Source: Bacilli bacterium
Lineage (GTDB): Bacteria > Bacillota_I > Bacilli_A > JBKEDG01
Length of the DNA stretch: 64,000 nt
NCBI GenBank assembly: GCA_047973085.1
Contig: JBKEBI010000070.1
Span: forward strand, 1,338-65,337
Reading direction: 5' to 3'
Shown: positions 10,104 to 64,000 of the stretch, one piece after another
Position numbering within the stretch: the first letter of the stretch is position 1
Layout: every line of letters begins with the position of its first letter
The notes under the pieces: model-generated
What the model saw: the letters and a program-made list of their open reading frames with translations, nothing else
What the model was told of the DNA's origin: nothing
Database searches by the model: none
Translations under genes and position numbers: made by a program

Positions 10104-10115
10104 TTAGCATCCTCC

Positions 10116-33821: not shown

Positions 33822-34242
33822 GAATCTTTATGGCACCCTCCCAAGGTAATAATGCACATTTAATACGATTTGGTTGCATATAAATTGTTTGAAAAACATT
33901 TGCTTCCTCAAGAATTTCTTTGTCGTATTCTTTTTCAAAAATCATATTATTATAATTATCAATAATATCCTTAGCGTCTGCTATTGATTTCCCTATTAGA
34001 AGTTTACTCATAATAGAAGCTGCTGCAGTAGAAATAGTACATGCTTCTCCATCAAAACGAATATCTTCAATAACTCCGTTTTCAATTCTAGCTTGCACGT
34101 AAATATCATCCACACAACTTTCACTATCCATATGAACTTTTTTATATGAATCGTCCTCAACTAACCCCCGGTTAGAAGGCTTCTTGTAATTTTCTAAAAT
34201 AATTTGTCGTTGAAAAGATGTATCATCAAATATATCAGTCAT
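33799..34242 (-). CDS. sufU: SUF-type Fe-S scaffold/sulfurtransferase SufU (copy 1)
   Basis: [19 protein letters not shown] and C-terminal CALLPWEGA Cys ligands. Confidence 0.85.
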
Positions 34243-34254
34243 TTTATCACCCCT

Positions 34255-38963: not shown

Positions 38964-39003
38964 AAAATACCTCATTATTTAAAGAATAATGAGGTATTTT
39001 TTT
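38964..39003. terminator. Bidirectional rho-independent terminator between prsA and metG
   Basis: Perfect 14-15 bp stem aaatacctcattat / ataatgaggtattt around the loop aaaga, with T-runs in both orientations. Confidence 0.8.
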
Positions 39004-48191: not shown

Positions 48192-48899
48192 ATGTGGAAA
48201 CTAATTGATTTATCCTTAATATTAACAAAAAATTTTAAGAATAAAAATGGAGAATATATTACTATCAACAAGCCCTTTTGGAAAATTTGGAGTAATATTT
48301 TATCAATCTGCATAATTATCCTTTCACTTTTGATTACTAGCATTGCTGGATTTGTTATAGTTATTAAAAATGTTACATACAATAGTAAGTATATAGCTGA
48401 AGAAGTAGAGGCATGTTTAAATGATCCAGAAAATGTAAACGTACTAAAAAATGAGAAAGCTATAGCTTCATTTTTTGAAAATAAGGGATATGATGAAATA
48501 GAAAGTAGTTTCCCTTATGAAAAAAAATTTCAGAATAAGATTGATAAAGATATTTTTTTAGAGTTTTCTTACTATATAAACTATGATAAGACAATTACAT
48601 GTAATGTTAGAATGTTATATACTGCTGATGAAGATTATATAGTAACACTATACCCTATTAGTTCTGAATCCGACTTTTCTAATAAGTCGAGTATTTATGT
48701 AAACTTAAGTGCAAGTTATGATGAGTATATAGTCGTTCATGCAAATCCAAACGAATTAGTTTACATCTCCGTAAATAATGGTAGTGATTATGAAAGTATT
48801 TCTAATAATAAATTTGAAAATAAGTATGAAAAAGAATATAACTTAACAATCGATGCTATTGATATTTTTACAATAGAATACTCTAATATTATTAAATAA
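48192..48899 (+). CDS. Membrane-anchored hypothetical protein
   Basis: N-terminal TM helix followed by a ~170-aa domain of unknown function; translationally coupled to the TM2 gene. Confidence 0.35.
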   Translation: MWKLIDLSLILTKNFKNKNGEYITINKPFWKIWSNILSICIIILSLLITSIAGFVIVIKNVTYNSKYIAEEVEACLNDPENVNVLKNEKAIASFFENKGYDEIESSFPYEKKFQNKIDKDIFLEFSYYINYDKTITCNVRMLYTADEDYIVTLYPISSESDFSNKSSIYVNLSASYDEYIVVHANPNELVYISVNNGSDYESISNNKFENKYEKEYNLTIDAIDIFTIEYSNIIK

Positions 48900-50345: not shown

Positions 50346-51719
50346 ATGATGACTAATTTTATAGTGTTTTATACAGTGTCATTTATATTAGAATACCTTA
50401 TTATATATTTAACAATTGGTCGGAATTTTTATCTAGTAAAAAAGCTTAAATTTAACAGTTACATAAAAATTATAATATTAATAGTATTAAGCATTTTTAT
50501 TAGAACACTTACTTCTATGAATGGGGTCCCCCATTTTATAAATATTATTACATTTATATTATTATTTATATATTTACTAATTTTATCAAAAAATTCATTT
50601 AAGTCAGCATTTTATTGGATAGTAATGACTTCATTTATTATATTTATTTCAGAAGTTTTTGTATTTATGATTGATAATATATTTATAGATAAAACCTTTC
50701 TTTCATCTTCTATGATAATTCGCATAAATACTACAGAACGCTTTATTAAACTATTTATACTTATGCTTGCTTCAAAGTTAGTAATATATATTTTATTAAA
50801 ACTGTTTACATCTCTTGTTTTAGAAAAAAAATCTATTCTTCAAAACTATAGTGTAGAATTTAGAATAATCATTGCAATTATGTTTATGCTTTTATTATTT
50901 ATAGCAATTGTTCAATTAAATTTAAGAGGATTTCTTAAAAACCCCATTATATTTATCAACTTATTTATAATAATATTATTTAGCTTATCAATACTATTTT
51001 TATTCTTATTTTTAAGAATAGCTAAGACTGCAGATGAACATATTAAAAGACAAAAGCTTGTAGAAACTCTCGAAAATAAAATCAAATTAAATAATACTAT
51101 TGAAACTGCTGAAGCTAATTTAAAAGCACTTAGGCACAATTTTTCCAATATATTTACAGTAATAACTGGACTTTTAAATCTTCAAGAATATTCTAAACTT
51201 AAAGAATATATTAATGAAATTAATGATGATATATATGATGCACATAAAATTGTTTTTTTAGCAAATAAACCCTTAGAAATCCTTGTAAATAACAAATTAA
51301 ATATAGCAAAACAACATAATATAAATTTTAAAACAATTATATCAACACACTCAATTACAAATTTTAAGAATAGTGATTTGTGTGACATAATGGGAAATAT
51401 TTGGGATAATGCTATTGATGCTGCTACAGAAGAACAAGGTGTAAAAACTATTATCTCAATAATGAATGTTCAAGATGGAAATTATGTAATAACGTGTGAA
51501 AATCCATACATTATTCCTCCAAATAGAATTGGAAATAAGTTTATTTCCACTAAAGGAGAAAATCGTGGTTTTGGTACGAAAAATGTTAATGCTATTGTAA
51601 AAAAATATAATGGTAACTTAAAATATGAGTTTAGAGATGGAATATGCAATGTATCAATAAAATTTCCTATCAAGAAACTAGATGAAAATAAAATTGAAAT
51701 TATTTTAAATGATGTGTAG
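50346..51719 (+). CDS. AgrC/ComD-type (HPK10) membrane sensor histidine kinase
   Basis: Six or more N-terminal TM helices, a phospho-acceptor H in LRHNFSN, and a C-terminal GHKL region (GENRGFGTKNV). Confidence 0.8.
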   Translation: MMTNFIVFYTVSFILEYLIIYLTIGRNFYLVKKLKFNSYIKIIILIVLSIFIRTLTSMNGVPHFINIITFILLFIYLLILSKNSFKSAFYWIVMTSFIIFISEVFVFMIDNIFIDKTFLSSSMIIRINTTERFIKLFILMLASKLVIYILLKLFTSLVLEKKSILQNYSVEFRIIIAIMFMLLLFIAIVQLNLRGFLKNPIIFINLFIIILFSLSILFLFLFLRIAKTADEHIKRQKLVETLENKIKLNNTIETAEANLKALRHNFSNIFTVITGLLNLQEYSKLKEYINEINDDIYDAHKIVFLANKPLEILVNNKLNIAKQHNINFKTIISTHSITNFKNSDLCDIMGNIWDNAIDAATEEQGVKTIISIMNVQDGNYVITCENPYIIPPNRIGNKFISTKGENRGFGTKNVNAIVKKYNGNLKYEFRDGICNVSIKFPIKKLDENKIEIILNDV

Positions 51720-51728
51720 GTGAGTTGA

Positions 51729-52454
51729 ATGGGGTATAATATACTAATCTGTGAAGATAATAAATATGCATTAAAAATAAATGATTCATACATAAAAAAA
51801 GCGTTAAGTGATATGAAAATAAATGGATGTATTCATACATACACTAATCCAGAAGTATTCTTTAGTGATGCCTCACATTTGGAGTTTGATATAGCATTCC
51901 TCGATATTAGATTTACAAATTCAAAATACTCTGGAGTAGATATTGCAAAAAAATTGAATGAAACAAATGATAATATTGTAATAGCATTTATTACTGGAGA
52001 GACAATTGATGTGACTGAAGCATACGAAGTAAGAGCATTTGATTATATAAAAAAGCCTATTATATGTAGTGACTTTCAATATACTTTTGCTAGAATTATA
52101 AAGCAAGCTGCATCTATAAAACATTATAATAGACCAAACTATATCTATTTAAGAACAAATTATTTGAAACAAAAAATTAGAACATCCGAAATTATTTATA
52201 CTGAAAAAATCGGTCATTCAATTGAAATAAATTTAAAAAATGGCAAAAAAATTATCGCAAACCATAGTACTAAGGAATTATGTGCTATGCTTGATAATAC
52301 ATTTTCAAGACCAAATCAAACAAATATTGTAAATCTAAATTATATAAATTATATTGATAAAAAAAATCTTGTTTTAAAAAATAGTTTAAAGTTAAAAATT
52401 TCAAGACATTTTAATAAGTCATTTATAGAAGATTATAGCAAATTTAATATTTAA
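51729..52454 (+). CDS. LytTR-family response regulator (AgrA/ComE-like)
   Basis: Receiver domain (ILICEDN ... FLDIRF) and a C-terminal LytTR DNA-binding domain. Confidence 0.85.
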   Translation: MGYNILICEDNKYALKINDSYIKKALSDMKINGCIHTYTNPEVFFSDASHLEFDIAFLDIRFTNSKYSGVDIAKKLNETNDNIVIAFITGETIDVTEAYEVRAFDYIKKPIICSDFQYTFARIIKQAASIKHYNRPNYIYLRTNYLKQKIRTSEIIYTEKIGHSIEINLKNGKKIIANHSTKELCAMLDNTFSRPNQTNIVNLNYINYIDKKNLVLKNSLKLKISRHFNKSFIEDYSKFNI

Positions 52455-53714: not shown

Positions 53715-54575
53715 TTAAATTCTTAACTCTTCAAATTGTAAAGGTATCATTCCTAATGTAGAATGATATCTTTTATTTGGATAATAATCTTCCAAGTAAT
53801 CAATCATCTCTGAAATTAAGAAATGTTTTGATATATTTATATTAGGATAAACCACTTTCCTTCTTGAAGTTACTAAAAAATGATTCACAAACAGCATTGT
53901 CGTAGGGATTACCCGGTCTTGACATTGAGTGGATTACAGAATATTCTTCAAGTAAATTTCTAAATTCCTTACTTGTATATTGTGATCCTCTATCTGCATG
54001 AATTATCATATCTTCGGTTGAATTAATCTTTAAATATTTTTCTAATTCTCCTGTAACTAGTACACTTTTCATGTTTGTGCTTATCATGTAACATACCAGA
54101 TTTCTTGAATAAATGTCTAATATATTGATAAATATAACATTCCTGTTTTATGGCGAAGATGTGTAATATTGCTACACAATATTTTTCCTTTACTTTCAGC
54201 ATAAAATTCTCTATTTAATAAGTTTTCTCGTATATAATCATCTAGTGATTTTTGATTTCTATACTTACGTTTATGCCTATAACCTACAGCTATTAAATTA
54301 TTATCTCGCATTATTTCTGCCACAACTCTTTTATTAGTTTCTATTCCCTCACTAAATAATTAAAGTGCTATTTTAGGTGAACCATATCTACCTTTATGAT
54401 CTTTAAAAACTCTAATTACTTCTTTTTAGTAATCATTCCTCTTTTTATTTGTGTAAGTGATTTAGGACGACTTTTAAAGTTATAATATCACGCTCTTGTA
54501 ACATTTAAGAGTTTGCAAAGTTCACTTACTGTATATTTATTTCTGTAACCATCAGAATTTAGAGTTCTTAAATAA
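53715..54575 (-). pseudogene. Degenerate IS3-family transposase (orfA HTH remnant plus frameshifted orfB/rve integrase in at least three pieces)
   Basis: Fragments ADRGSQYTSKEF...SMSRPGNPYDNAVCESFF (rve DDE core), the C-terminal piece YYPNKRYHSTLGMIPLQFEE, an N-terminal orfB piece, and an upstream HTH-like remnant. They lie in different frames with intervening stops. Confidence 0.7.
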
Positions 54576-55055
54576 CAAAGAAAATGTATTGCTATTTGGT
54601 AATCCTAGTGTTGGTAAAACACACTTAGCAATAGGATTAGGAATAGAAGCATGCTTATCTAATAAAACTGTTTTATTTATAAGCGTACCTAATTTGATGA
54701 TAGAATTAAAAGAAGCAATGAATTTAAATCAAATTCAAAAGTACAAAAGGAATTTTGAAAAATATGACTTAGTAATATTGTATGAACTGGATATATATTT
54801 GAGAAGGAGGCAAACGAGGTATTATTTAACTTATTGTCAAATAGAAATAATAAAGGCTCAATAATACTTACAACCAACCTAACATTTGAGAGATGGAATG
54901 AAGTATTTAAGGATCAAGTATTAACTGCTACAATTGTTGATAGATTAGCTCATAAGTCACATATCATTGATTTAACAGGTGAAAGTTTTAGAGCAAAGGA
55001 AACCATTGATTGGTTAAATAAAAATCAGGTTGCAAGTAGACTCATTTTCACTTGA
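54576..55055 (+). pseudogene. IS21-family IstB helper ATPase fragment (5'-truncated, internally frameshifted)
   Basis: Begins abruptly at the Walker A motif (LFGNPSVGKTHLAIGLG), continues LVILYELD (Walker B), then shifts frame into ...TTNLTFERWNEVF...DRLAHKSHIIDL. The N-terminal ~100 aa are missing exactly where the IS3 remnant abuts. Confidence 0.65.
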
Positions 55056-56748
55056 CAAATACATCATTGGGTCCTATGTTAATAAATATACAATTATCAA
55101 CTTTTTTAATATATCCTTTTTGTGGATAATATGTCATATCCTCAGAAATTTTTTCTTCTTCTACAACTGTTAAACTTTTTATATTACAAGCATTTACATC
55201 ATAACCCAAATAATTTATATATTTAATTAGATATTCTTGCTTCAAATTAGGATATCCTGTTGTTCCAAATGTGTCTAAATATACAATATTGCTATAATAT
55301 GAGAAATCATAGTAGTCTTTCCCTTCATTTTCTAATATTCCCCCATAAAACCTATTTTCAATTGTATTAAATATTTTTCCACGAAGTGTATTCTTTTCTA
55401 TCTGTATGATTGCATCATCATTTTCACTATCATCAATTTTATATTTACCAACAAAATAAATTTTTTGTTCCGTACCATATTTGCTCTCAACATCATGTAT
55501 TATTGTATAAAAAAATCTTTCTTGCTCTACATTCTTTTGCCAATCTCGTTCATAAAACATATTTTGCAAATGAGCACCAGAATATACAGCAAACGCAGAT
55601 ATTATTATAAAACCCTTTTTAAATATTTTTCTATCAAGCATTAAATAGACATATGCACTTCCAAACATCACGAATGTTGCCATAGTTTGAAGTGTTCTTG
55701 GGAGCTGCGACTTACCATCTACTATAGAAATACCAAAAATAGTTAAATTTATCATAATTAGAATAAAGAAATTTATCCATCTTGTTTTTCTATCTTTAAT
55801 AGTAAATATTCCAACAAACATTAAAATTGTTACTATTACATGAAACATGTGTGAAAAACTAAATAAAGCAACAAAATAGTGATCCACAAATATATTAATG
55901 ATCAAACTTTTCAAAGTATGTATGATAGAATCTGAACTTAACCATACACTTTCGGATATTGAAACTCGATCCAATTTATCCACATTTAAAATATTAATTA
56001 ATCCATTAGCAATCAAACTTTCAAAAATAGTAGCTACTATAATTACAATCATTGATATAATTAACAGCTGTAATAGACTAGTAACATTTATTTTACTATT
56101 TCGTGTACTACTAAATAAGCAAATAAATAATATCATCATAAAATACACAAAAACAAATGATTCATACGAGCTTATTAATAGTATCAATAGCAGAGTGATT
56201 ACAATTAAATATTTAATTTTTTGAGTAAGGCAATATTGTATAGTATATACTACTGCAAGTATTGATAGTAAATATCCAAGCGCAGTTAAAACTGTTACTA
56301 ATAAATATTTAAATATTAAAGCATTAGTCGGAAATGTTAACAATAATCCTGTAAATATAGCTAAAACTACATAGTTTTTTATCCCACTAATCATTTTTAA
56401 AAGGGCTGCAGTTAAAACTGAAGCAATTATAAAAATAATAATTGTTATGGCCATTGTAAAAAATACATGATATTGCATTACATCAAATACTTCATGCAAA
56501 ATTTGTCCTACAAATCTACCTTGACTTATAAGACCATAGTTATCAAAAAATCGAATTGTATCTAGATCATCAACACCTGTTGCATGAAAATAAAGAGAAA
56601 AGCCATATGTTAAAAACGTAAAAAAAAGCGTAATTAACATAAATATATTATTAAAAAACAATTTTCTAACATTTTTGAAATAATCATTTAAAAAATCTCC
56701 ATTATATTTAATACAATTAAATTTTAAAAGCTCTTTTAATTTATACAT
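55048..56748 (-). CDS. Polytopic membrane glycosyltransferase, GtrC/GtrII-like (paralog 1)
   Basis: 566 aa, about 12 TM helices, conserved DDLD...F...G.ISQGRFVGQ N-terminal loop and a C-terminal soluble domain. Located in an operon with gtrA and gtrB. Confidence 0.55.
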   Translation of the reverse strand: MYKLKELLKFNCIKYNGDFLNDYFKNVRKLFFNNIFMLITLFFTFLTYGFSLYFHATGVDDLDTIRFFDNYGLISQGRFVGQILHEVFDVMQYHVFFTMAITIIIFIIASVLTAALLKMISGIKNYVVLAIFTGLLLTFPTNALIFKYLLVTVLTALGYLLSILAVVYTIQYCLTQKIKYLIVITLLLILLISSYESFVFVYFMMILFICLFSSTRNSKINVTSLLQLLIISMIVIIVATIFESLIANGLINILNVDKLDRVSISESVWLSSDSIIHTLKSLIINIFVDHYFVALFSFSHMFHVIVTILMFVGIFTIKDRKTRWINFFILIMINLTIFGISIVDGKSQLPRTLQTMATFVMFGSAYVYLMLDRKIFKKGFIIISAFAVYSGAHLQNMFYERDWQKNVEQERFFYTIIHDVESKYGTEQKIYFVGKYKIDDSENDDAIIQIEKNTLRGKIFNTIENRFYGGILENEGKDYYDFSYYSNIVYLDTFGTTGYPNLKQEYLIKYINYLGYDVNACNIKSLTVVEEEKISEDMTYYPQKGYIKKVDNCIFINIGPNDVFVK

Positions 56749-56762
56749 TTTTATCTACCACT

Positions 56763-58456
56763 CCTTCTTATTCATCAATACTATTTTGTCCTATATTAAC
56801 AAATATACACCCATCTTGTTCTTTTATGTATCCATTTTGTGGATAATAATTCATATCTTTAGCCATATCTTTTTCTTCAGTTTCATCTAAATATTCAATA
56901 TCGCATGAATTCACATCATACCCTAAATATATAATATATCTAATAAAGTACTCTTGTTTATGTTATGTTTTAGCATAATCTCCAAAAACATCAATTAGCA
57001 CAGAACTACTGTAATATGCATATGCATAATAGTCAGAACCCTCATTAGTTAATTTGCTATCATAAAATCTTTTATTTATATAATTAAATATCTTTCCAGG
57101 ATAACTATCTTTAGTTATTTGTAAAACAGAATCATCATACCATTTCTGTTCAACATCATACTTACCAATAAAATATACATTTTGTCCACTACCATATTGA
57201 TATTCAACATCATGCATAAGCGTATTTAAAAAGTTTTCTTGTTTTAAATGATTTTTCCATTCTCTTTCATAATATAAATTTTGTAAATGCGCACTTGAAT
57301 ATATTGCAAAAGACACCACAATAATAAATGTTTTTTTAATCCACTTCTTACATAATGCAATATAAACATATCCACTACCAAACATAACAAAGGTTGAAAA
57401 AGTTTGCATTGTTCGCGCTAACTGTACTTTTCCTTCTACAACAGTTATTCCATAAACTGAAATATTTATTAAAATAATTATTAATATGCTTCTCAATAAA
57501 TATTTTCTATCGCTTACAAAAAAAGTAGCAACAAACATAAAAAATACAATTAAAACATAATACATATGAGAAAAATCTAAAAGTCCTATAAAGAAATAAT
57601 TAATAAAAATATTAAAGATTAGTCTTTTGATAGTATACATAGATGGTGATTTAAACCACATACTTTCAGATATAGCGACTCTATTTATTTTTTCTAAATC
57701 TAGGATGTAAATTAGTAAATTAGAAACTAATGATTCTATAAGTGTTGAAACTATTATTAATATACATACATATAATAAAAATTTTATGATTGACTGCGTT
57801 TTAAACCTACTATTAATTCTCAAACTAAATAAAATAAAAAATAAAATCATAGTAAAATAAACAAAAACAAATGATTCATATGAACTAATTGCAAAAACTA
57901 ATAAAGAGATTACTACTAAACTACTTTTGATTTTTTTCTCTAAAATAAAATGAATGGTATATACAACAGCAAATATAGATAGTATATATTCTAAGCTTGT
58001 TAAAACTGTAGCTAAAATAAATTCAAAAATAAAAGCATTTGTTGGAAAAACAAGCATTAAGGCTGTAAACAACGCAATCATAAAGTTATTCTTAATACCA
58101 CTTATCATTTTTAGCAATGCTGCTGTAAAAATAGATGCAACAATAAAGAGAATGATTGTAATAGCCATTGTAAAAAAAGCATGATTCCACATAATATCAA
58201 ATACTTCGTGTAATATTTGTCCAACAAATCTACCTTGCCTTATTAATCCATATTCAACGAAAAATCTATCTCTATCTAAATCATCAGCTCCTATTGCATG
58301 AAAATAAAGATAAAAGCCGTATGTTAAAAACGAAGTACCAAGTAGAAATAACATAAAACAATTACTTTTAATAAGTTCTTTTACTGTATCATAGTATTCT
58401 TTTAGAAAATTTCCATCATAAGTTAAAATATTATCTTTTTTCAATAATTTTTTCAT
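56763..58456 (-). pseudogene. GtrC/GtrII-like paralog 2, interrupted by an in-frame TAA at 56963-56965
   Basis: 497-aa ORF highly similar to paralog 1 (GADDLDRDRFFVEYGLIRQGRFVGQILHEVFD...). Homology to paralog 1's C-terminus (HKQEYFIRYIIYLGYDVNSCDI...NGYIKEQDGCIFVNIG) continues in the same frame directly after the TAA stop. Confidence 0.55.
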
Positions 58457-58477
58457 TAGTTCCTCCTAATTTTTATT

Positions 58478-59374
58478 TTATTTTAAAGAGTCGCCTAATT
58501 TTTTAAATCCATTTTCTAAACTAATTCTAGGATGCCAATTAGGTAAAGTTTTGTAGGCTCTTTTTAATTTCATAATCTCCATAGGACGGTAGTCTTTTCC
58601 ACCCCAATTAACATTAATTTGGCAACCATTAACTTCTTCATATAATTTAACCGTATCTTTAACACTTAAAGTTACTGGTGAATATACATAAAATTCTTCA
58701 TATGTCTCTGAACTATTTATTAAATACTCGTGAGCACACACAAATGCCCTACATACATCTTCTGCATGGGTTAAATTCATATCTTGTTCTCCAAGTGTAA
58801 GATTTGTCTCAATATCAGTACCACAATTTTGTGCAATAAGATTTATTAGTTTTATTCTAATATCCTTTTCCGAATAATTGTCAAACAATTTCAATGTTAA
58901 ACATTTCATTTTTTCCACATCAGAATAATACTTCATCATATCAATAAATGCCTGTTTTGTCGCGGCATAGAGATTTGTTGGAATGTATTCATCTGTACTT
59001 GTAAAATGTTGTGAAAATGTACCTGTATTGATAAAATATTTAATATTATTTTTTTTCATCAACTCAAGCATATGTACTCCTAATTTAATATTACTATCAA
59101 GCATTCTATCAACATCGTTTATTGTATGAAAACCAACTATACAAGATGCTAAATGAAAAATAACATCGACAGTTTTGTTATTAAAGTATATTAAAAGCTT
59201 GTCAAGATCTCCATTATATTCATATACATCAATTTTATCTATAATATCAATCAAATTACTATCATTAAAATTTTCCACATCTAAAACTGTAACATTATAT
59301 CCATCATCAAGTAAGATTTTTACTAAATTAGATCCGATAAAACCAGCACCGCCAGTTACAATTGCATTTTTCAT
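58478..59374 (-). CDS. NAD(P)-dependent sugar epimerase/reductase (SDR), likely CDP-4-keto-6-deoxyhexose reductase/epimerase
   Basis: VTGGAGFIGSNL Rossmann motif and YAATK catalytic motif. Start taken at MKNAIVTGG (59374), immediately after the gtrB stop. Sits in the rfbFG/gtr operon. Confidence 0.65.
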   Translation of the reverse strand: MKNAIVTGGAGFIGSNLVKILLDDGYNVTVLDVENFNDSNLIDIIDKIDVYEYNGDLDKLLIYFNNKTVDVIFHLASCIVGFHTINDVDRMLDSNIKLGVHMLELMKKNNIKYFINTGTFSQHFTSTDEYIPTNLYAATKQAFIDMMKYYSDVEKMKCLTLKLFDNYSEKDIRIKLINLIAQNCGTDIETNLTLGEQDMNLTHAEDVCRAFVCAHEYLINSSETYEEFYVYSPVTLSVKDTVKLYEEVNGCQINVNWGGKDYRPMEIMKLKRAYKTLPNWHPRISLENGFKKLGDSLK

Positions 59375-59375
59375 C

Positions 59376-60323
59376 TTATTCACCATCCTCGGAGAAATTA
59401 ATTCTCTCTTCTTCAATTACATGAGGTCGCTTCATAACTCTTGTATTAATACTTAAAATATATTCTCCCACAATACCTATAAAAAATAATTGCACAGCCC
59501 CTAAAAAGAATACTCCAACTAAAAGTGATGGAAATCCTAAAGCAAATTTATCCCAATTTAACGCCTTTTGAAAGGCCACTACAATTGCAAAAATAAATGA
59601 TAAAAATCCAACAAAAACTCCCATAAAAATAGCTAATCTAAGAAAAACAGTAGTATATGAAGTTATTCCTTGCATTGCTACATCATAGTTTCGTATAAAA
59701 TTGAAATTTGAAAAACCTCTATTACTTTTTTCTTGAGTATATTGGATGATTTTAATATTTGATCCAAATTCAACTACAATCCCTTTAAGATATGGATTGG
59801 GATCGTCTATTTCATGCAAAATATTAATAAATTTTTTATCATACAAACCAAATCCAACAAAATGTTTAATTTGATCAATTTCACCAAATCTATCCATTAT
59901 CCAATAAAAAATTGATCTAAACTTAAACATTAACCAATTTTCCTTACTAACTAGCTTTTGTCCAACTACAACTTGATGCCCTTTTTCCCATTCAGATATA
60001 AAATCAACAATTAATTCAGGTGGATCTTGTAAATCTCCATAAACTAAAAAGGTAGCTTCACCAGAACCTTGTTTCAAAGCATGAAAAACATTTCTTGAAA
60101 ATCCAAAATTTTTACTATTAAAAATACATTTTACACGCTTATCTTGTGCTGCAAGTTTTCTAAGTAAAGTTCTTGTATTATCTTCAGAACAATTATCAGC
60201 AAAAATCAATTCAAAATCATAATTTAAAAGTTGACTTTCAAAAACACTTAAAATTCTATCATATATAACTTCAACACTTTTTTCTTCATTAAATGTAGGA
60301 ACTACTACACTAATTATTTTCAT
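59376..60323 (-). CDS. gtrB: GT2 polyprenyl-phosphate glycosyltransferase (GtrB/CsbB-like)
   Basis: VVVPTFNEE and ADNCSED GT-A motifs plus two C-terminal TM helices. Confidence 0.8.
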   Translation of the reverse strand: MKIISVVVPTFNEEKSVEVIYDRILSVFESQLLNYDFELIFADNCSEDNTRTLLRKLAAQDKRVKCIFNSKNFGFSRNVFHALKQGSGEATFLVYGDLQDPPELIVDFISEWEKGHQVVVGQKLVSKENWLMFKFRSIFYWIMDRFGEIDQIKHFVGFGLYDKKFINILHEIDDPNPYLKGIVVEFGSNIKIIQYTQEKSNRGFSNFNFIRNYDVAMQGITSYTTVFLRLAIFMGVFVGFLSFIFAIVVAFQKALNWDKFALGFPSLLVGVFFLGAVQLFFIGIVGEYILSINTRVMKRPHVIEEERINFSEDGE

Positions 60324-60711
60324 CTACTTTTCCCCCTTTAAAGCCCCAATATTTATTTAAAATATAGTTTATTGGAGTTGTTATCATCACTCCAAAAATA
60401 GGAGCAATTTTTTCGTTTATACTCATAATATCAACAAATAAATACATTAAAAAAGTATATACAATTAAAGAAAATATATAAATTGAATACACTTTTACTA
60501 TACTGTTAAAACTATGTTTTACTTTGAAAACAAAGAATCTATTCATAACATATGCATTTAAAATACTTAAAAAATAAGCAAAAATTGTTGCTATTAAATA
60601 ATGAATATTTAATAATAGTAATAAATTATAAACTGAAATATTAATTGCAAAGTTAATAAAACCTATAATACAAAAAAATATAAATTTTTTAGAAAAAAAA
60701 TCATTACGCAT
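60310..60711 (-). CDS. gtrA: GtrA-family small membrane protein (lipid-linked sugar flippase)
   Basis: 133 aa with 4 TM helices, located immediately upstream of gtrB. Confidence 0.7.
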   Translation of the reverse strand: MRNDFFSKKFIFFCIIGFINFAINISVYNLLLLLNIHYLIATIFAYFLSILNAYVMNRFFVFKVKHSFNSIVKVYSIYIFSLIVYTFLMYLFVDIMSINEKIAPIFGVMITTPINYILNKYWGFKGGKVDENN

Positions 60712-60738
60712 TTATTATCTCCTTAAATCGTATAATAT

Positions 60739-61779
60739 TTATAGCTTATCAATAAAGTATTGAATCTGTCTATTTGTCACATCATTTTTATCACTACATT
60801 TTGCCCATTCTACACATAAAGCAATCGCTTCATCAACATTAAAAAGAGGTTGCCAATTTAAAATGTTTTTTGATTTAGAACAATCAAGTTTTAAAAATCC
60901 AGCTTCATGTGGTCCATTATTATTAATAATTTTAAATGAAGCATTTTCCTTCCACTCATTACAAAACTTTTCTACTAGAGTACCTGTTGTAATACAATCT
61001 TCTTCATTTGGACCAAAATTATAACATCCTTCAAAACTTTTATTATTATATTGCTTTATTGCAAGCAATAAATACCCACTTATACAATCCATAACATGCT
61101 GATAAGGTCTTGTAGAATTTGGATTCCTAATAATGATTTCTTCCTTGTTAGCTGCATATTTTATGCAATCAGGTATTATTCTATTTGCAGAAAAGTCTCC
61201 TCCACCAATTACATTACCTGATCTTGCAGTAGAAACTGAAATATTATCTTTTAAATCGAAAAAAGATTTTTTATAACTATATGAAACAAGTTCACTACAT
61301 GATTTTGAATTTGAATATGGATCATATCCACATAACTCTTCATTTTCACGATATCCCCAATTCCACTCTCTATTTAAATAAACTTTATCTGTAGTTACGT
61401 TAATAAAAGATTTAATGCAATCTAAACTTCTAACAACTTCTAAAATATTAACTGTTCCCATCACATTAACATCATATGTATACACTGGTTCATCATATGA
61501 ATCTCTAACTAACGGCTGTGCTGCAAGATGTAAAACTATATCAGGTTGAAACTTTTCAATACAAGACTTTAAAAAAGTAAAATCTCTTATATCTCCTTCA
61601 AAATGAGTAATCTTATTTTTTGTTTTCAAAATATCAAACATCTCATATGTTTGATGAGAATAGCCTGCAACTTCTGCACCGAATTTTAGCAATATTTCTG
61701 TTAACCAAGTTCCCTTAAAACCTGTATGTCCAGTAATAAGAACTTTCTTACCTCTATAAAAATCTACCATTTTTTCCAT
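60739..61779 (-). CDS. rfbG: CDP-glucose 4,6-dehydratase
   Basis: KKVLITGHTGFKGTWL Rossmann N-terminus, an SDR-extended fold, and adjacency to rfbF. Confidence 0.85.
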   Translation of the reverse strand: MEKMVDFYRGKKVLITGHTGFKGTWLTEILLKFGAEVAGYSHQTYEMFDILKTKNKITHFEGDIRDFTFLKSCIEKFQPDIVLHLAAQPLVRDSYDEPVYTYDVNVMGTVNILEVVRSLDCIKSFINVTTDKVYLNREWNWGYRENEELCGYDPYSNSKSCSELVSYSYKKSFFDLKDNISVSTARSGNVIGGGDFSANRIIPDCIKYAANKEEIIIRNPNSTRPYQHVMDCISGYLLLAIKQYNNKSFEGCYNFGPNEEDCITTGTLVEKFCNEWKENASFKIINNNGPHEAGFLKLDCSKSKNILNWQPLFNVDEAIALCVEWAKCSDKNDVTNRQIQYFIDKL

Positions 61780-62534
61780 TTTGCTTTTCCTTCTTCAATA
61801 AGTTCTTCTAGATATTCTTTATCTCTTAATGTGTCCATACACTGCCAAAATCCATTATATTTATATGCACCAAGTTCATTATTTTGAGCAAGAGATTCAA
61901 GCGGAAAACGCTCTAAGATTTCATTATCATTTCTTAAATAATCAAATATTTCTTTTTCTAGAACCATAAATCCACCATTAATATACCCCATATCATCTTT
62001 TGATTTTTCTCTAAATGCATGGATCTCAGATTTATTCCCTATTTCCAAAATACCAAATCTTCCTTCTGGACGTACAGCAGTAAGTGTAGCTTTAAATTTA
62101 GAATTCTTATGAAATTCAATTAGTTCGTTAATATTTAAATCACATACTCCATCTCCATATGTTAGCATAAAAGTTTCATCTCCAACATACTCTTGAATTC
62201 GTTTAACTCTTCCACCAGTCATTGTATCTAATCCAGTATCAATAAGAGTTACATTCCATGGTTCAGAAAAATTATTATGAACTTTCATAGTATTATCTTT
62301 CATATTAAAAGTTACATCCGAAGTATGTAAATAATAATTTGCAAAGTACTCTTTAATTTTATAAGCTTTATATCCAAGACAAATAATAAAGTCATTATGT
62401 CCATAATGTGAATACATTTTCATTATGTGCCACAAAATTGGTTTTCCTCCAATTTCTATCATTGGTTTTGGAATTAAATGACTCTCTTCAGATATTCTTG
62501 TACCATATCCACCAGCTAAGATTACTACTTTCAT
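61764..62534 (-). CDS. rfbF: Glucose-1-phosphate cytidylyltransferase
   Basis: MKVVILAGGYGTRISEE...KPMIEIGGKPILWHIMKMYS is a hallmark of RfbF/DdhA. Confidence 0.9.
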   Translation of the reverse strand: MKVVILAGGYGTRISEESHLIPKPMIEIGGKPILWHIMKMYSHYGHNDFIICLGYKAYKIKEYFANYYLHTSDVTFNMKDNTMKVHNNFSEPWNVTLIDTGLDTMTGGRVKRIQEYVGDETFMLTYGDGVCDLNINELIEFHKNSKFKATLTAVRPEGRFGILEIGNKSEIHAFREKSKDDMGYINGGFMVLEKEIFDYLRNDNEILERFPLESLAQNNELGAYKYNGFWQCMDTLRDKEYLEELIEEGKAKWKKW

Positions 62535-62647
62535 AAATACACCTCTTTTATTTATTTATTTTTTCTATTATAACATATTTGTATTACATTTTACCATTAA
62601 ATATCATAGTATTTTAAAATCTATTAAATTAATAATCTTAATAATTT

Positions 62648-63457
62648 TTATAAGAAATCAGGATAAAATTTTCTTAGTCTTCCTTGTAAAACAGCACCTA
62701 ATATAAGCAGTAAAAAAACAACTCCCCAGAAGTATAAATGATAATTAATTGTAATATAATTTGATACTTGAAAAGATTCTCTAAAACCACACAAAATATA
62801 AGTTATTGGGTTGGCTAAAATTAGTTTTTTAACAATTGCTAAATCTGTTAAACCACCAATTGACTCTACTGACCAAAATATTGGTATAAAATAAATAATT
62901 ATTCTTATAATTGCCATATACAACTCCTTAAAGTCCTTTGATATAGCAATAAATCCTGAAATAAAATGAGTAAAAGCTATCATTAGCATTATCATTGCAA
63001 AATTATAATAAATAAATAACAGCGGTTGAATATTTTTTAAATAACCAAAAAATGCTAAAATAATAAATCCTATCACATATGTTAATGATCTTCTATAAAA
63101 TATTGATAATGTTTCATACGTTGGAATAATACTAACAGGAAACTTTATACTCTTAAATATTGATCGATTTCTAATTAAGCATTGACTTCCTGTTGATAAT
63201 ACTTCTGATATAAAAAACCATGCAAGCATACCAGTGACTAAATAAACTGTTCTTGGTGCTCCATCAATACTTCCTCCACGATAAATAAAAGTCATAAAGA
63301 AACTATATGTTACTAAATAAATAATATCTTTATATAAAGACCAAAAAATCCCTAAAGAAGTTCCAGCATAATGTTTTCGTGTACTAGATATTGATAATGA
63401 TATTAATTGTTTAAATGAAGAAATATGCTCATTTAAAAATAATTTAATTGTAGACAT
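62648..63457 (-). CDS. ABC-2 type polysaccharide/teichoic-acid export permease (Wzm/TagG-like)
   Basis: 269 aa with 6 TM helices and an ABC-2 family signature; overlaps the upstream ATPase gene (ATGA). Confidence 0.75.
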   Translation of the reverse strand: MSTIKLFLNEHISSFKQLISLSISSTRKHYAGTSLGIFWSLYKDIIYLVTYSFFMTFIYRGGSIDGAPRTVYLVTGMLAWFFISEVLSTGSQCLIRNRSIFKSIKFPVSIIPTYETLSIFYRRSLTYVIGFIILAFFGYLKNIQPLLFIYYNFAMIMLMIAFTHFISGFIAISKDFKELYMAIIRIIIYFIPIFWSVESIGGLTDLAIVKKLILANPITYILCGFRESFQVSNYITINYHLYFWGVVFLLLILGAVLQGRLRKFYPDFL

Positions 63458-64000
63458 TATTTACTCACCCCATTATCTTTATTATACATTTCAAAGGCTT
63501 CATCAGGATTTCCATCAAATGCAATGTGTCCATCCTTTAAATAAATAACACGTTCACATAAATCTTTAACTTGATTTTCTGAATGTGAAACAAACAAAAT
63601 TGTCTTACCTTCTTCAAAAAATTTCATAGTCATTTTCTTTGATTTTTCTTGAAAATTTTTATCCCCAACTGCAAAAACCTCATCTATAATTAGAATATCA
63701 GGATTAGTTTTAGCTGATAATGCAAAACCCAAGCGAGCTTTCATACCAGAGGAATATGTTTTTAATGGTAAATCAATGTAGTCTCCAATTTCAGCAAATT
63801 TAATAATGTCTGACATAACAGAAATTAAAAAATCTCTAGTAAAACCCATCAATTGCCCTTTTAGCATTATGTTTTCTCTTCCTGTTAAGTCAGGCTCAAA
63901 GCCTGCACTTAATTCAATTAAACTGGCAATACTACCATTTACACTAATATTTCCACTATTTGGATAATATATTTCAGCAATTAATTTTAAAACTGTTGAT
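63457..64000 (-). CDS. ABC transporter ATP-binding protein (Wzt/TagH-like), C-terminal part; the 5' end lies beyond the window
   Basis: The frame stays open to the window edge upstream of the track's Met: ...STVLKLIAEIYYPNSGNISVNGSIASLIELSAGFEPDLTGRENIMLKGQLMGF... followed by the ABC signature YSSGMKARLGFA and Walker B ILIIDE. Confidence 0.8.
   Translation of the reverse strand, partial: STVLKLIAEIYYPNSGNISVNGSIASLIELSAGFEPDLTGRENIMLKGQLMGFTRDFLISVMSDIIKFAEIGDYIDLPLKTYSSGMKARLGFALSAKTNPDILIIDEVFAVGDKNFQEKSKKMTMKFFEEGKTILFVSHSENQVKDLCERVIYLKDGHIAFDGNPDEAFEMYNKDNGVSK

What the first reader, a model, noticed from the sequence alone, without database searches (positions are those of the whole stretch)
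55048..64000. Surface-glycosylation island: CDP-hexose pathway fused to a Gtr-type three-component glycosylation module and a Wzm/Wzt exporter
One co-directional minus-strand cluster reads wzt(partial)-wzm | rfbF - rfbG - gtrA - gtrB - SDR - gtrC'(interrupted) - gtrC.

GtrA/GtrB/GtrC-type systems normally load undecaprenyl-phosphate from a UDP-sugar (UDP-Glc, UDP-GlcNAc or UDP-Gal). A GT-C enzyme then decorates the polymer outside the cell.

Here the only nucleotide-sugar genes in the operon make CDP-glucose (RfbF) and CDP-4-keto-6-deoxy-glucose (RfbG), followed by an SDR epimerase/reductase. There is no RfbH/DdhC-type 3-dehydrase, so the product would be a CDP-6-deoxyhexose rather than a 3,6-dideoxyhexose.

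This suggests a polyprenyl-P-(6-deoxyhexose) intermediate made by the GtrB-like GT2 from a CDP-sugar, and a deoxyhexose decoration on a teichoic-acid or S-layer-type polymer exported by Wzm/Wzt. Cytidine-linked donors are uncommon for this enzyme family.

The island is bounded by tRNA genes and IS debris, consistent with a variable serotype-type locus.
Basis: partly seen in the sequence, partly recalled or inferred. Interest (0 to 1): 0.6.

Follow-up and report, generated by a model that had tools for sequence, protein, structure and literature searches.

The report
CDP-deoxysugar-fed three-component surface glycosylation operon
A gut-type Bacilli genome carries an operon that appears to make a cytidine-activated 6-deoxy sugar, load it onto a lipid carrier with a GtrB-like enzyme, and attach it to a surface polymer outside the cell. 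That enzyme has lost the residue that reads uridine, and the same variant turns up widely next to CDP-sugar genes but has not been characterised.

Summary
The minus strand of 55048-64000 reads wzt(partial)-wzm | rfbF-rfbG-gtrA-GT2(GtrB-like)-SDR-GtrII'(TAA nonsense)-GtrII. The genes from rfbF to the first GtrII are tightly packed, and the window holds no RfbH, RmlC, RmlA or GalU.

The CDP-donor idea gains independent support:
- GtrB Asp43 hydrogen-bonds uracil N3, and its equivalents are PfDPMS Asp39 and ArnC Asp48. In the window GT2 this position is Asn44.
- In 80 metagenome loci, 26 of 48 "DN"-type GT2s have rfbF, rfbG or rfbH within 10 kb, against 0 of 32 Asp-type (16/3 vs 0/16 with long flanks; p≈3e-7).
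- The window enzyme is the DN-type sister (100% bootstrap) of a gut-Clostridia clade that has reverted to Asp and sits in dTDP-sugar/Glf clusters.
- The SDR belongs to a family found with rfbF and rfbG in 9 of 12 genomes, usually right after an RmlC-like epimerase. This fits a terminal 4-ketoreductase.

The most likely pathway is CDP-Glc → CDP-4-keto-6-deoxy-Glc → CDP-6-deoxyhexose → polyprenyl-P-6-deoxyhexose → flipped → transferred by the GT-C enzyme.

Three things remain inferred: the acceptor polymer, the sugar stereochemistry and the enzyme activities. I rate it a new variant of a known kind, and widespread rather than unique.

The parts
63457..64000 (-). wzt/tagH-like ABC-transporter ATPase. 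Partial: the N-terminus lies beyond the window end.
   Evidence: PF00005 at 33 bits. Best NCBIfam hits are TagH (183 bits) and galactan Wzt (144 bits), both below cutoff because the sequence is truncated.
62648..63457 (-). wzm-like ABC-2 permease. Its start codon overlaps the wzt stop by 1 nt.
   Evidence: PF01061 at 26.7 bits against a cutoff of 26.9. NF050109 Wzm at 41 bits. Five hydrophobic segments predicted. The assignment rests on weak similarity plus position.
61764..62534 (-). rfbF, glucose-1-phosphate cytidylyltransferase (makes CDP-glucose).
   Evidence: TIGR02623 equivalog at 403.6 bits, cutoff 300. A ribosome-binding site and a 113-nt AT-rich gap lie upstream.
60739..61779 (-). rfbG, CDP-glucose 4,6-dehydratase (makes CDP-4-keto-6-deoxy-D-glucose).
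   Evidence: TIGR02622 equivalog at 424.8 bits, cutoff 278. Overlaps rfbF by 16 nt.
60310..60711 (-). gtrA-family small membrane protein, the putative flippase for the lipid-linked sugar.
   Evidence: PF04138 at 76 bits. Lies 27 nt after rfbG and overlaps the GT2 start by 14 nt.
59376..60323 (-). GtrB-like polyprenyl-phosphate glycosyltransferase: GT2/GT-A domain plus two C-terminal TM helices. Carries Asn44 at the base-reading position and Y95-G-D97 in place of DXD.
   Evidence: PDB GtrB 5EKE at 1e-39, ArnC at 5e-20, DPMS at 2e-13. The link between the DN motif and CDP-sugar genes is, and the phylogeny.
58478..59374 (-). Extended SDR (TGGAGFIGS, YAATK), probably a CDP-4-keto-6-deoxyhexose 4-reductase. 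It has Asp after beta-strand 2, which suggests NAD(H).
   Evidence: PF01370 at 103 bits; GalE model at 68 bits against a cutoff of 262. Family alignment A1. Homologues sit beside rfbF and rfbG in 9 of 12 genome loci, usually right after an RmlC-like gene. The AF2 model has pLDDT 93, and Foldseek does not discriminate.
56768..58456 (-). GtrII-family GT-C glycosyltransferase, copy 1. Interrupted by an in-frame TAA at 56963-56965; 65 more homologous codons follow in the same frame.
   Evidence: PF14264 at 52 bits. DDLD at residues 58-61 and 8 or more hydrophobic segments. Read-through alignment to the paralogue.
55048..56748 (-). GtrII-family GT-C glycosyltransferase, copy 2. Intact, 566 aa.
   Evidence: PF14264 at 45 bits. 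55% identical to copy 1. DDLD at residues 60-63 and 10 hydrophobic segments.
53715..55055 (.). Insertion-sequence debris at the downstream edge: fragments of an rve-type transposase (minus strand) and of an IstB-like ATPase (plus strand).
   Evidence: PF00665 at 48 bits for 53842-54087. PF01695 at 44 and 66 bits for 54589-54864 and 54834-55055. All are short, broken ORFs.

Best explanation
This is a three-component (GtrA / GtrB-like / GT-C) extracytoplasmic glycosylation system whose sugar comes from a CDP-hexose pathway in the same operon.

Proposed steps:
1. RfbF makes CDP-D-glucose.
2. RfbG makes CDP-4-keto-6-deoxy-D-glucose.
3. The SDR reduces C4 to give a CDP-6-deoxyhexose. With no 3-dehydrase and no 3,5-epimerase present, this would be D-quinovose or D-fucose.
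4. The GtrB-like GT2 transfers the sugar to undecaprenyl phosphate at the inner face of the membrane. It reads cytosine with Asn44, where UDP-, dTDP- and GDP-using relatives have Asp.
5. GtrA flips the lipid-linked sugar.
6. The intact GtrII-type GT-C enzyme (and formerly its now-truncated paralogue) attaches the sugar to a surface acceptor outside the cell. The acceptor is probably the glycopolymer exported by the adjacent Wzm/Wzt-type transporter.

What is shown: gene identities, operon packing, absence of alternative donor genes, the residue substitution, and its statistical and phylogenetic link to CDP-sugar genes.

What is inferred: every enzyme activity, the role of Asn44, the sugar stereochemistry and the acceptor.
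For: Gene identities: rfbF and rfbG pass the equivalog cutoffs. GtrA, GT2 and GtrII are assigned by Pfam. The GT2 matches the GtrB structure at 1e-39 and has two C-terminal TM helices.

Operon packing: overlaps or gaps of at most 27 nt run from rfbF to the first GT-C gene, and no terminator-like site was found.

No alternative donor genes: no RfbH, RmlC, RmlA or GalU in 64 kb.

The base-reading residue:
- GtrB D43 aligns with window N44.
- The literature reports Asp43 of GtrB hydrogen-bonding UDP N3, Asp39 of PfDPMS binding guanine N1/N2, and D48 of ArnC hydrogen-bonding UDP.
- The SfV and P22 GtrBs read NDGS.

Neighbourhood association:
- 26 of 48 DN-type GT2 loci carry rfbF, rfbG or rfbH, against 0 of 32 Asp-type. 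With at least 10 kb of flank the counts are 16/3 vs 0/16, Fisher p = 3e-7.
- In several loci rfbF lies 21-54 bp from the GT2, and those rfbF genes pass TIGR02623.
- An independent SDR-seeded genome scan found DN-type GT2s in 3 of 4 CDP loci.
- 119 of 120 relatives of the L009 GT2 are DN-type. Contexts in Bacteroides and Methanoregula again carry CDP-pathway genes.

Phylogeny: the window GT2 groups with the Asp-revertant 'DDYS' clade in 100% of bootstraps. That clade sits in RmlA/RmlB/2,3-dehydratase/Glf clusters, so the base-reading residue changes where the pathway changes.

Three-component context: DN-type GT2s frequently abut a GtrA gene and large polytopic membrane proteins.

The SDR family sits in CDP clusters.

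Conservation: the GT2-SDR-GtrII order recurs in a related contig.
Against: - There is no biochemical evidence.
- The DN/CDP association is partly phylogenetic: the DN sequences form one paraphyletic superclade. Only two residue transitions are inferred, so the Fisher p-value overstates independence.
- One NDGS-type GtrB-like GT2 sits inside a CDP cluster (L007).
- Some DN loci with long flanks lack CDP genes (L088, L099).
- Residues held to be important in GtrB (D94, D157, R200) are not conserved in the window enzyme: Y95, G157 and S200.
- The window SDR has Asp where most family members have Arg or Lys after beta-strand 2. That is an NAD+-type site, as in epimerases. Its best structural neighbours are UDP-hexose 4-epimerases, though only at about 20% identity.
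- The CDP-sugar could also, or instead, feed cytoplasmic glycosyltransferases encoded beyond the window end.
- One of the two GT-C genes is broken and IS fragments abut the cluster, so the system may be decaying.
Confidence: 0.6

Rival explanations
1. Two separate pathways happen to share an operon. The GtrB-like GT2 uses a housekeeping UDP-sugar (UDP-Glc or UDP-GlcNAc) as classical Gtr, Csb and Gac systems do. RfbF, RfbG and the SDR supply a CDP-deoxysugar to cytoplasmic glycosyltransferases that build the Wzm/Wzt-exported polymer, whose genes lie beyond the window end.
For: All characterised GtrB-type enzymes use UDP-sugars, or GDP-Man in DPMS. The wzm/wzt genes lie directly upstream and the rest of that cluster is unseen. 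One NDGS-type GT2 does sit in a CDP cluster (L007).
Against: The uracil-contacting Asp is replaced by Asn44. The DN variant is linked to CDP genes in dozens of loci, and the Asp variant is linked in none of the metagenome loci. gtrA and the GT2 are inserted between rfbG and the SDR with overlapping or near-abutting reading frames. No UDP-sugar gene is present.
Confidence: 0.15
2. The lipid-loading logic is the same, but the SDR is not a simple 4-ketoreductase. It could be an NAD+-bound epimerase acting on CDP-glucose or CDP-6-deoxyhexose. It could be a bifunctional GMER-like epimerase/reductase. It could also reduce the 4-keto sugar only after transfer to the lipid, as DprE2 does. In each case the transferred sugar differs from D-quinovose or D-fucose.
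For: Asp after beta-strand 2 in the window SDR and in its 74% relative, where other family members have Arg or Lys. The top Foldseek and PDB neighbours are 4-epimerases and Pal. The SDR gene lies after the GT2 rather than next to rfbG. In Mycobacterium tuberculosis the genes for a GtrA-like protein, DprE1, DprE2 and the GT-C enzyme AftA are adjacent; this is from my own knowledge and was not checked here.
Against: In 9 of 12 genomes the family sits with rfbF and rfbG, typically right after an RmlC-like epimerase or after RfbH-RfbF-RfbG. That is the position of a terminal 4-reductase. Without a reductase, the RfbG product would stay an unstable 4-keto sugar. Structural matches at about 20% identity do not separate SDR sub-functions.
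Confidence: 0.17
3. The cluster is a decaying remnant that no longer glycosylates anything.
For: There is a nonsense codon in GT-C copy 1. IS fragments lie directly downstream. The sequence is a MAG contig that nobody has cultured.
Against: The other eight genes are intact, with good ribosome-binding sites and conserved catalytic motifs. The sequence after the premature stop is still homologous and in frame, so the lesion is recent or an assembly error. The second GT-C copy is complete.
Confidence: 0.08

Closest known systems
Phage and Shigella/Salmonella GtrA-GtrB-Gtr(type) O-antigen glucosylation, with Synechocystis GtrB (PDB 5EKE/5EKP) as the structural reference
   Same: The same three parts in the same logic: a GtrA-family protein; a GT2 with a GT-A domain and two C-terminal TM helices (1e-39 to GtrB); and a PF14264 GtrII-family GT-C enzyme with an acidic motif in its first outer loop.
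   Different: The classical systems use UDP-glucose and read NDGS, with Asp43 on uracil N3. This GT2 has Asn44 and Y-G-D instead of D-x-D. Its operon encodes its own CDP-glucose to CDP-4-keto-6-deoxyglucose pathway plus an SDR. There are two GT-C paralogues, and the host is a Gram-positive-type Bacilli MAG.
Gram-positive three-component decoration systems: CsbB/GtcA/YfhO on teichoic acids, GacI/GacL and SccN/SccP on rhamnopolysaccharides, and PgfS/PgfE/PgfM1/PgfM2 and GtrB/PgtC2 on Ser/Thr-rich proteins
   Same: A lipid-linked monosaccharide is made inside the cell and transferred outside to a wall polymer or protein. The Pgf operon also carries an SDR (PgfE) between the GT2 and a GT-C gene. 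PgfS is the best NCBIfam hit for the window GT2.
   Different: Those systems use UDP-Glc, UDP-GlcNAc or UDP-GalNAc, and PgfE is a UDP-hexose 4-epimerase. Their GT-C enzymes are of the YfhO type. The window GT2 scores 184 bits against the PgfS model, whose cutoff is 500. The SDR belongs to a CDP-pathway family, and the GT-C enzymes are GtrII-type.
CDP-3,6-dideoxyhexose pathways of Salmonella and Yersinia (RfbF/DdhA, RfbG/DdhB, RfbH/DdhC, RfbI/DdhD, then RfbS/RfbJ or AscE/AscF)
   Same: The first two enzymes are clear equivalogs. The SDR family occupies the terminal-reductase position in related clusters that do contain RfbH and an RmlC/AscE-like epimerase.
   Different: The window has no RfbH, RfbI or epimerase, so the product should keep its 3-OH and be a 6-deoxyhexose. 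In Salmonella and Yersinia the CDP-sugar is used by cytoplasmic transferases on the Und-PP-linked repeat unit, not by a GtrB-type enzyme (my own knowledge).
The 'DDYS' GtrB-like clade of gut Clostridia (C. difficile, Oscillibacter, Dysosmobacter, Peptoanaerobacter). It is uncharacterised and is the nearest sequence relative.
   Same: 54-60% identical to the window GT2, and sister to it with 100% bootstrap support. It shares the loss of the first DXD aspartate (F-G-D against Y-G-D). It is embedded in a deoxysugar pathway together with a GtrA gene.
   Different: The base-reading residue is Asp. The neighbouring genes are RmlA, RmlB, an NDP-hexose 2,3-dehydratase, a 3-ketoreductase, RmlC, an SDR and a Glf-type mutase, so the donor would be thymidine- or uridine-linked rather than cytidine-linked.

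Membership tests
Three-component GtrA/GtrB/GT-C extracytoplasmic glycosylation system | A GtrB-type polyprenyl-phosphate glycosyltransferase: a GT-A (GT2) domain followed by two C-terminal TM helices | tested here: met
   PF00535 at 84 bits. PDB GtrB at 1e-39, ArnC at 5e-20 and DPMS at 2e-13, over residues 4-302. Hydrophobic segments at 220-238 and 259-277.
Three-component GtrA/GtrB/GT-C extracytoplasmic glycosylation system | A GtrA-family small membrane protein encoded next to the GT2 | tested here: met
   PF04138 at 76 bits, cutoff 26. Overlaps the GT2 start by 14 nt.
Three-component GtrA/GtrB/GT-C extracytoplasmic glycosylation system | A polytopic GT-C glycosyltransferase with an acidic motif in the first outer loop | tested here: met
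   PF14264 (GtrII) at 52 and 45 bits, cutoff 30. 8-10 hydrophobic segments, with DDLD at residues 58-61 and 60-63. The fold itself was not modelled.
Three-component GtrA/GtrB/GT-C extracytoplasmic glycosylation system | A UDP-sugar donor, read by the conserved Asp (GtrB D43, ArnC D48) | tested here: not met
   Window N44 aligns with GtrB D43. The SfV and P22 GtrBs have Asp. The operon has no UDP-sugar gene, and the only donor genes are rfbF, rfbG and the SDR. The actual donor is not testable with these tools.
Three-component GtrA/GtrB/GT-C extracytoplasmic glycosylation system | Formation of Und-P-monosaccharide and its transfer to an extracytoplasmic acceptor | not testable with these tools
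   Needs membrane assays and glycan analysis.
Glucose-1-phosphate cytidylyltransferase (RfbF/DdhA, TIGR02623) | Full-length match above the curated equivalog cutoff | tested here: met
   403.6 bits against a cutoff of 300.25, covering residues 1-256 of 256.
CDP-glucose 4,6-dehydratase (RfbG/DdhB, TIGR02622) | Full-length match above the curated equivalog cutoff | tested here: met
   424.8 bits against a cutoff of 278.45.
CDP-3,6-dideoxyhexose pathway | Presence of the PMP-dependent 3-dehydrase RfbH/DdhC | tested here: not met
   tblastn with an RfbH that passes NF011936 (746 bits) finds nothing in the window.
UDP-glucose 4-epimerase (GalE/PgfE type), tested for the SDR | Match to the GalE equivalog model above cutoff | tested here: not met
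   TIGR01179 at 67.7 bits against a cutoff of 262. The best PDB sequence hit is Pal at 1e-15. Foldseek hits to 4-epimerases have TM about 0.84 but only 18-23% identity, which is the generic extended-SDR fold.
CDP-4-keto-(3,)6-deoxyhexose 4-reductases (RfbS, RfbJ, AscF type), tested for the SDR | Sequence relationship to characterised RfbS, RfbJ or AscF, and NAD(P)H-dependent reduction of a CDP-4-ketosugar | not tested
   No reference sequences or models for these enzymes were available in the libraries searched. Only context evidence exists: the family sits beside rfbF and rfbG in 9 of 12 genomes, after an RmlC-like gene or after RfbH-RfbF-RfbG.
Pgf protein O-glycosylation system (PgfS/PgfM1/PgfE/PgfM2) | A PgfS equivalog plus YfhO-type GT-C enzymes | tested here: not met
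   NF047588 at 183.7 bits against a cutoff of 500. The window's GT-C enzymes hit GtrII (PF14264), whereas PgfM1 and PgfM2 are described as YfhO-domain proteins.
Wzm/Wzt (TagG/TagH) ABC-transporter-dependent glycopolymer export | An ABC-2 permease and a cognate ATPase above family thresholds | tested here: inconclusive
   The ATPase fragment clearly matches the TagH/Wzt models, but it is truncated and so falls below the equivalog cutoffs. The permease scores 26.7 bits against a Pfam cutoff of 26.9. The two genes overlap by 1 nt.

The most novel reading that the evidence does not exclude
The window enzyme is one member of a very large, phylogenetically broad and so far uncharacterised class of GtrB-type polyprenyl-phosphate glycosyltransferases. 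The class is found in Bacteroidota, Firmicutes, Actinomycetota, Margulisbacteria, Patescibacteria and methanogenic archaea. Its members would take CDP-activated deoxy, dideoxy or branched hexoses as donors. A single Asp-to-Asn switch at the base-reading position (GtrB D43) would act as the specificity determinant for cytosine against uracil, thymine or guanine. A derived gut-Clostridia clade has switched back to Asp together with a dTDP/UDP pathway.
Probability: 0.5. Interest if true: 0.75.

Novelty: new variant of a known kind. Interest (0 to 1): 0.62.

Why it matters
Three-component systems are a general route by which bacteria decorate O-antigens, teichoic acids, rhamnopolysaccharides and surface proteins after export. 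These decorations set serotype, phage receptor status and immune recognition. Recent work still describes the lipid-loading enzyme as a UDP-sugar user.

If a CDP-dependent branch exists, three things follow:
- Rare immunodominant sugars such as 6-deoxy, 3,6-dideoxy and branched hexoses could be added outside the cell in many gut and environmental organisms.
- Genome annotation could predict the donor nucleotide from one residue.
- The Asp/Asn position would be a simple handle for re-engineering donor specificity in glycoengineering.

The prediction is directly testable with CDP- versus UDP-sugars and with reciprocal point mutants.

Tried and rejected
- **Exact-sequence look-ups.** Look-ups of the window's wzm and GT2 products found no contig on record. 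The 1.7 kb of the source contig beyond 64000 could therefore not be read.
- **Promoter and terminator scan.** Promoter-like sites were no more frequent than in shuffles, and there were no terminators. This says nothing about whether rfbF has its own promoter.
- **Genome scan with the SDR alignment.** It was saturated by the generic TGxxGxxGS pattern. Only about 12 of 80 loci were true family members.
- **Foldseek of the SDR model (pLDDT 93).** It returned only generic extended-SDR neighbours, with UDP-hexose 4-epimerases at about 20% identity. It cannot decide between reductase and epimerase.
- **Alternative genetic code for the stop in GT-C copy 1.** Rejected. The codon is TAA, other genes use TAA, TAG and TGA as stops, and the paralogue has Asn at that position.
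- **Pgf-type protein glycosylation system and GalE-type SDR.** Rejected on model scores and on context.
- **3,6-dideoxyhexose product.** Rejected because no RfbH is present.
- **Text searches for 'uracil' or 'nucleobase'.** The GtrB cryo-TREM paper and the ArnC paper gave nothing useful. The base contact was found in the DPMS paper, and a second search of the ArnC paper found D48.
- **Literature searches pairing GtrB, GtrA or undecaprenyl phosphate with CDP-sugars.** No paper describes such an enzyme. Subscription-only literature was not covered.

Full report
**1. What is in the sequence**

The window is a low-GC (about 25%) chromosomal stretch. Sources name the identical proteins 'MAG: Bacilli bacterium', on a 65.7-kb contig. 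The rest of the window holds core genes: rpoB, rpoC, uvrA, mfd, sufB, sufS and metG.

Pfam and NCBIfam results:

| Gene | Coordinates | Evidence |
|---|---|---|
| wzt (partial) | 63457 to >64000 | TagH/Wzt-like ABC ATPase fragment |
| wzm | 62648-63457 | ABC-2 permease, marginal: 26.7 bits vs cutoff 26.9 |
| rfbF | 61764-62534 | TIGR02623, 404 bits vs cutoff 300 |
| rfbG | 60739-61779 | TIGR02622, 425 bits vs cutoff 278 |
| gtrA | 60310-60711 | PF04138, 76 bits |
| GT2 | 59376-60323 | GtrB-like (see below) |
| SDR | 58478-59374 | extended SDR |
| GtrII copy 1 | 56963-58456 | PF14264, 52 bits |
| GtrII copy 2 | 55048-56748 | PF14264, 45 bits |

- The GT2 matches solved Synechocystis GtrB at 1e-39, ArnC at 5e-20 and archaeal DPMS at 2e-13. 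It has two C-terminal hydrophobic helices.
- The two GT-C paralogues are 55% identical. Each has a DDLD motif in the first loop and 8-10 hydrophobic segments.
- Copy 1 carries one in-frame TAA at 56963-56965. After it the frame stays open and homologous for 65 more codons. This looks like a recent nonsense mutation or an assembly error, not recoding.
- From rfbF to GT-C copy 1 the genes overlap or lie at most 27 nt apart. A 113-nt AT-rich gap separates wzm from rfbF. No terminator-like site was found.
- Directly downstream lie broken rve and IstB ORFs. Further on come a radical-SAM gene, then tRNA-Ile and tRNA-Trp.

The 'island boundary' is visible on one side only.

**2. No other donor pathway is present**

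tblastn with RfbH, RmlC, RmlA, RmlB and Glf probes found nothing else in the 64 kb. The RfbH probe itself passes its equivalog model. The operon therefore makes CDP-glucose and CDP-4-keto-6-deoxy-glucose, has one further SDR, and has no 3-dehydrase or 3,5-epimerase.

**3. What the SDR is**

It is a full-length extended SDR with TGGAGFIGS and YAATK motifs. It scores only 68 bits against GalE, whose cutoff is 262. Its best solved relative is Pal, at 1e-15.

Homologues at 30-48% identity form a well-conserved family (alignment A1). In 12 true family members recovered from species-representative genomes, 9 lie within a few kb of rfbF and/or rfbG; these come from Proteobacteria, Actinomycetota, Firmicutes, Bacteroidota and Margulisbacteria. 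In most of those loci the SDR directly follows an RmlC-type epimerase, and an RfbH, C-methyltransferases or transketolase-like subunits are also present. A 44% relative sits in the order RfbH-RfbF-RfbG-SDR.

That is the position of the terminal 4-ketoreductase in CDP-deoxysugar pathways.

Two cautions apply:
- The window protein and its 74% relative have Asp after beta-strand 2, where the others have Arg or Lys. That suggests NAD(H).
- Foldseek on a confident model (pLDDT 93) returns only generic neighbours, led by UDP-hexose 4-epimerases at about 20% identity.

I take 'CDP-4-keto-6-deoxy-D-glucose 4-reductase giving CDP-D-quinovose or CDP-D-fucose' as most likely. The stereochemistry, and even the reductase-versus-epimerase question, stay open.

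**4. The GT2 and its donor**

The published structures identify the base-reading residue. Asp39 of PfDPMS binds guanine N1/N2. The equivalent Asp43 of GtrB hydrogen-bonds N3 of UDP (PMC5526996). ArnC D48 hydrogen-bonds UDP (PMC12690121).

In an ungapped stretch of the HMMER and pairwise alignments, GtrB N42-D43-G44-S45 aligns with window D43-N44-C45-S46. The experimentally studied phage GtrBs of SfV and P22 read NDGS.

Uracil, thymine and guanine present an N-H donor to this carboxylate. Cytosine presents an acceptor (N3) next to an amino donor, which an Asn amide can match. This chemical argument is inference.

**5. Does the Asn variant track CDP-sugar genes?**

- *Nearest homologues.* All 119 nearest homologues of the window GT2 (54-60% identity) read DD[YCFHS]S.
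- *SDR-seeded loci.* Three of the four GtrB-like GT2s found inside CDP clusters in the SDR-seeded scan read DN; the fourth (L007) reads NDGS.
- *Metagenome scan.* A scan seeded with the DN-type GT2s returned 80 loci. Of these, 48 are DN-type and 32 are ND/DD-type. rfbF (at least 45% identity), rfbG or rfbH lies within the fetched flanks in 26 of 48 DN loci and in 0 of 32 others. With at least 10 kb of total flank the counts are 16/3 against 0/16, Fisher p = 3e-7.
- *Tight linkage.* In several loci rfbF starts 21-54 bp from the GT2, and those genes pass TIGR02623.
- *Three-component context.* DN-type GT2s often abut a GtrA gene and large polytopic membrane proteins, so they belong to three-component systems.
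- *Wider family.* A search with the Margulisbacteria DN-type enzyme found 119 of 120 top relatives to be DN-type. They include gut Bacteroides, Mucilaginibacter, Smithella, Patescibacteria and Methanoregula. The two contexts examined again contain RfbF-, RfbG- or RfbH-like genes plus a YerE-like TPP enzyme.

**6. Phylogeny**

A neighbour-joining tree with 100 bootstraps gave these results:

| Grouping | Bootstrap support |
|---|---|
| Classical ND/DD-G-S enzymes separate from everything else | 100% |
| Window GT2 together with the DDYS clade | 100% |
| DDYS clade monophyletic without the window | 88% |
| DN sequences alone as a clade | 0% |

The DDYS clade is therefore a derived Asn-to-Asp revertant inside the DN superclade. 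The window enzyme is its DN-type sister.

All four DDYS contexts examined carry RmlA, RmlB, an NDP-hexose 2,3-dehydratase, a 3-ketoreductase, RmlC, an SDR, a Glf-type mutase and GtrA. These contexts come from C. difficile, Oscillibacter, Dysosmobacter and Peptoanaerobacter. The RmlA, RmlB and Glf genes that were tested, those of the Oscillibacter locus L168, pass their equivalog cutoffs.

So the residue changes exactly where the neighbouring nucleotide changes from cytidine to thymidine or uridine. Only two transitions are inferred, which means the Fisher test overstates independence. Even read purely as clade-level gene linkage, however, the data tie this GT2 lineage to CDP-sugar pathways.

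**7. Mechanism proposed**

1. RfbF makes CDP-Glc.
2. RfbG makes CDP-4-keto-6-deoxy-Glc.
3. The SDR makes a CDP-6-deoxyhexose.
4. The GT2 (Asn44) makes Und-P-6-deoxyhexose.
5. GtrA flips it.
6. The intact GtrII-type GT-C enzyme transfers the sugar to a surface acceptor.

The neighbouring wzm and wzt genes, and similar ABC-exporter genes in related loci (L001 and L007), make an ABC-exported wall glycopolymer the most likely acceptor. Protein acceptors, as in streptococci, cannot be excluded.

The first aspartate of DXD (GtrB D94) is Tyr in the window enzyme, Phe in the DDYS clade and mostly a small hydrophobic residue in the DN clade. In PfDPMS, the residue at this position is among those expected to sense the sugar's O2 configuration. 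Its loss may relate to deoxysugar donors, but that is speculation. It also means this lineage departs from the GtrB catalytic template: D157 and R200 are not conserved either.

A related contig keeps the GT2-SDR-GtrII order, with the last 54 residues of the GT2 at 96%, the SDR at 74% and the GT-C enzyme at 58% identity.

**8. Comparison with what is known, and novelty**

The architecture is a clear member of the three-component family for three of four structural criteria. It fails the 'UDP-sugar donor / conserved Asp' criterion. It is not a Pgf system, not a GalE-containing system and not a 3,6-dideoxyhexose pathway (see the membership tests).

Full-text searches of the open-access corpus found no paper linking GtrB-type enzymes to CDP-sugars. 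A 2024 study states that GtrB-type enzymes use a UDP-sugar. Subscription-only literature was not covered.

I therefore rate it a new variant of a known kind.

**9. Verdict**

| Measure | Value |
|---|---|
| Confidence in the CDP-fed three-component mechanism | about 0.6 |
| Interest | 0.62 |

The broader reading is a widespread CDP-dependent GtrB class with an Asp/Asn nucleotide switch. It would deserve about 0.75 if confirmed, and it is directly testable with a handful of assays.

Noticed in passing
L001 10001-18314; L168 5638-14004; L169; L170: The nearest relatives of the window GT2 (54-60% identity, motif DD[YC]S / F-G-D) come from C. difficile, Oscillibacter, Dysosmobacter and Peptoanaerobacter. 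They sit in a conserved cluster with RmlA, RmlB, an NDP-hexose 2,3-dehydratase, a GFO-type 3-ketoreductase, RmlC, an SDR, a Glf-type mutase and GtrA. This suggests a lipid-linked 2,6-dideoxyhexose (possibly in furanose form) or Galf decoration system, which also appears uncharacterised.
   Followed up: partly
L083, L084, L085 (8643-10876): A 45% homologue of the SDR, paired with an RfbH-like DegT gene, lies on 100-190 kb contigs. Its neighbours look phage-like: DNA polymerase III alpha, several Lar-type restriction-alleviation genes, GIY-YIG, RNase T and SocA_Panacea. rfbF and rfbG were not detected in the fetched flanks by tblastn, and no genes were called in the 5.7-8.6 kb stretch just upstream of the RfbH-like gene.
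   Followed up: no
L172/L173 (gut Bacteroides) and L174 (Methanoregula): DN-type GtrB-like GT2s sit in clusters with RfbF- and RfbG-like genes and a ~600-aa TPP-dependent enzyme that is YerE-like, hinting at branched-chain CDP-sugars. The Bacteroides locus also has two GtrA genes, a GT87-family GT-C enzyme and a MACPF protein. The family reaches methanogenic archaea.
   Followed up: partly
window 56963-56965: A single TAA truncates GT-C copy 1 at codon 498. The downstream 65 codons remain in frame and homologous to the paralogue, which has Asn at this position. The cause is a recent nonsense mutation, strain heterogeneity in the MAG, or a consensus error.
   Followed up: yes
window 59376-60323 (GT2 residues 95, 157, 200): Residues highlighted as functionally important in Synechocystis GtrB (D94, D157, R200) align with Y95, G157 and S200 in the window enzyme. 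D96 and Q98, the metal ligands, are kept as D97 and Q99. The catalytic details of this lineage may differ from GtrB.
   Followed up: partly
L171 (Logan contig, 2.5 kb): A related organism keeps the same GT2-SDR-GtrII order. The end of the GT2 is 96% identical to the window, but the SDR is only 74% identical and the GT-C enzyme 58%. Divergence along the module is uneven, which would fit diversifying selection on the outward-facing enzyme.
   Followed up: partly
window 50346-52454: This is an AgrC/LytS-like GHKL histidine kinase with a polytopic N-terminus, followed by a LytTR response regulator. The pair lies just beyond the tRNA genes from the cluster. No link to the glycosylation genes was tested.
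   Followed up: no
window 53715-55055: Fragments of two different insertion-sequence proteins lie between the cluster and a radical-SAM gene. One is an rve-type integrase core on the minus strand. The other is an IstB-like ATPase, split into two ORFs on the plus strand. The end of the IstB fragment overlaps the stop of GT-C copy 2.
   Followed up: partly
window 41149-44235: A 1028-aa FtsK/SpoIIIE-family ATPase sits among housekeeping genes (metG at 39002-40873; rpoB and rpoC at 6426-13703; uvrA and mfd at 15174-21184; sufB and sufS at 32400-35496). Two neighbouring ORFs, 47152-47805 and 48192-48899, have no Pfam match.
   Followed up: no
L177 (MT838861.1, human faecal virome scaffold): The best hit in the phage collection is a DN-type GT2 (FIDNDS, 48% identity) on an unannotated 4.8-kb 'Bacteriophage sp.' scaffold. 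No CDP-pathway gene was detected on this short record.
   Followed up: partly
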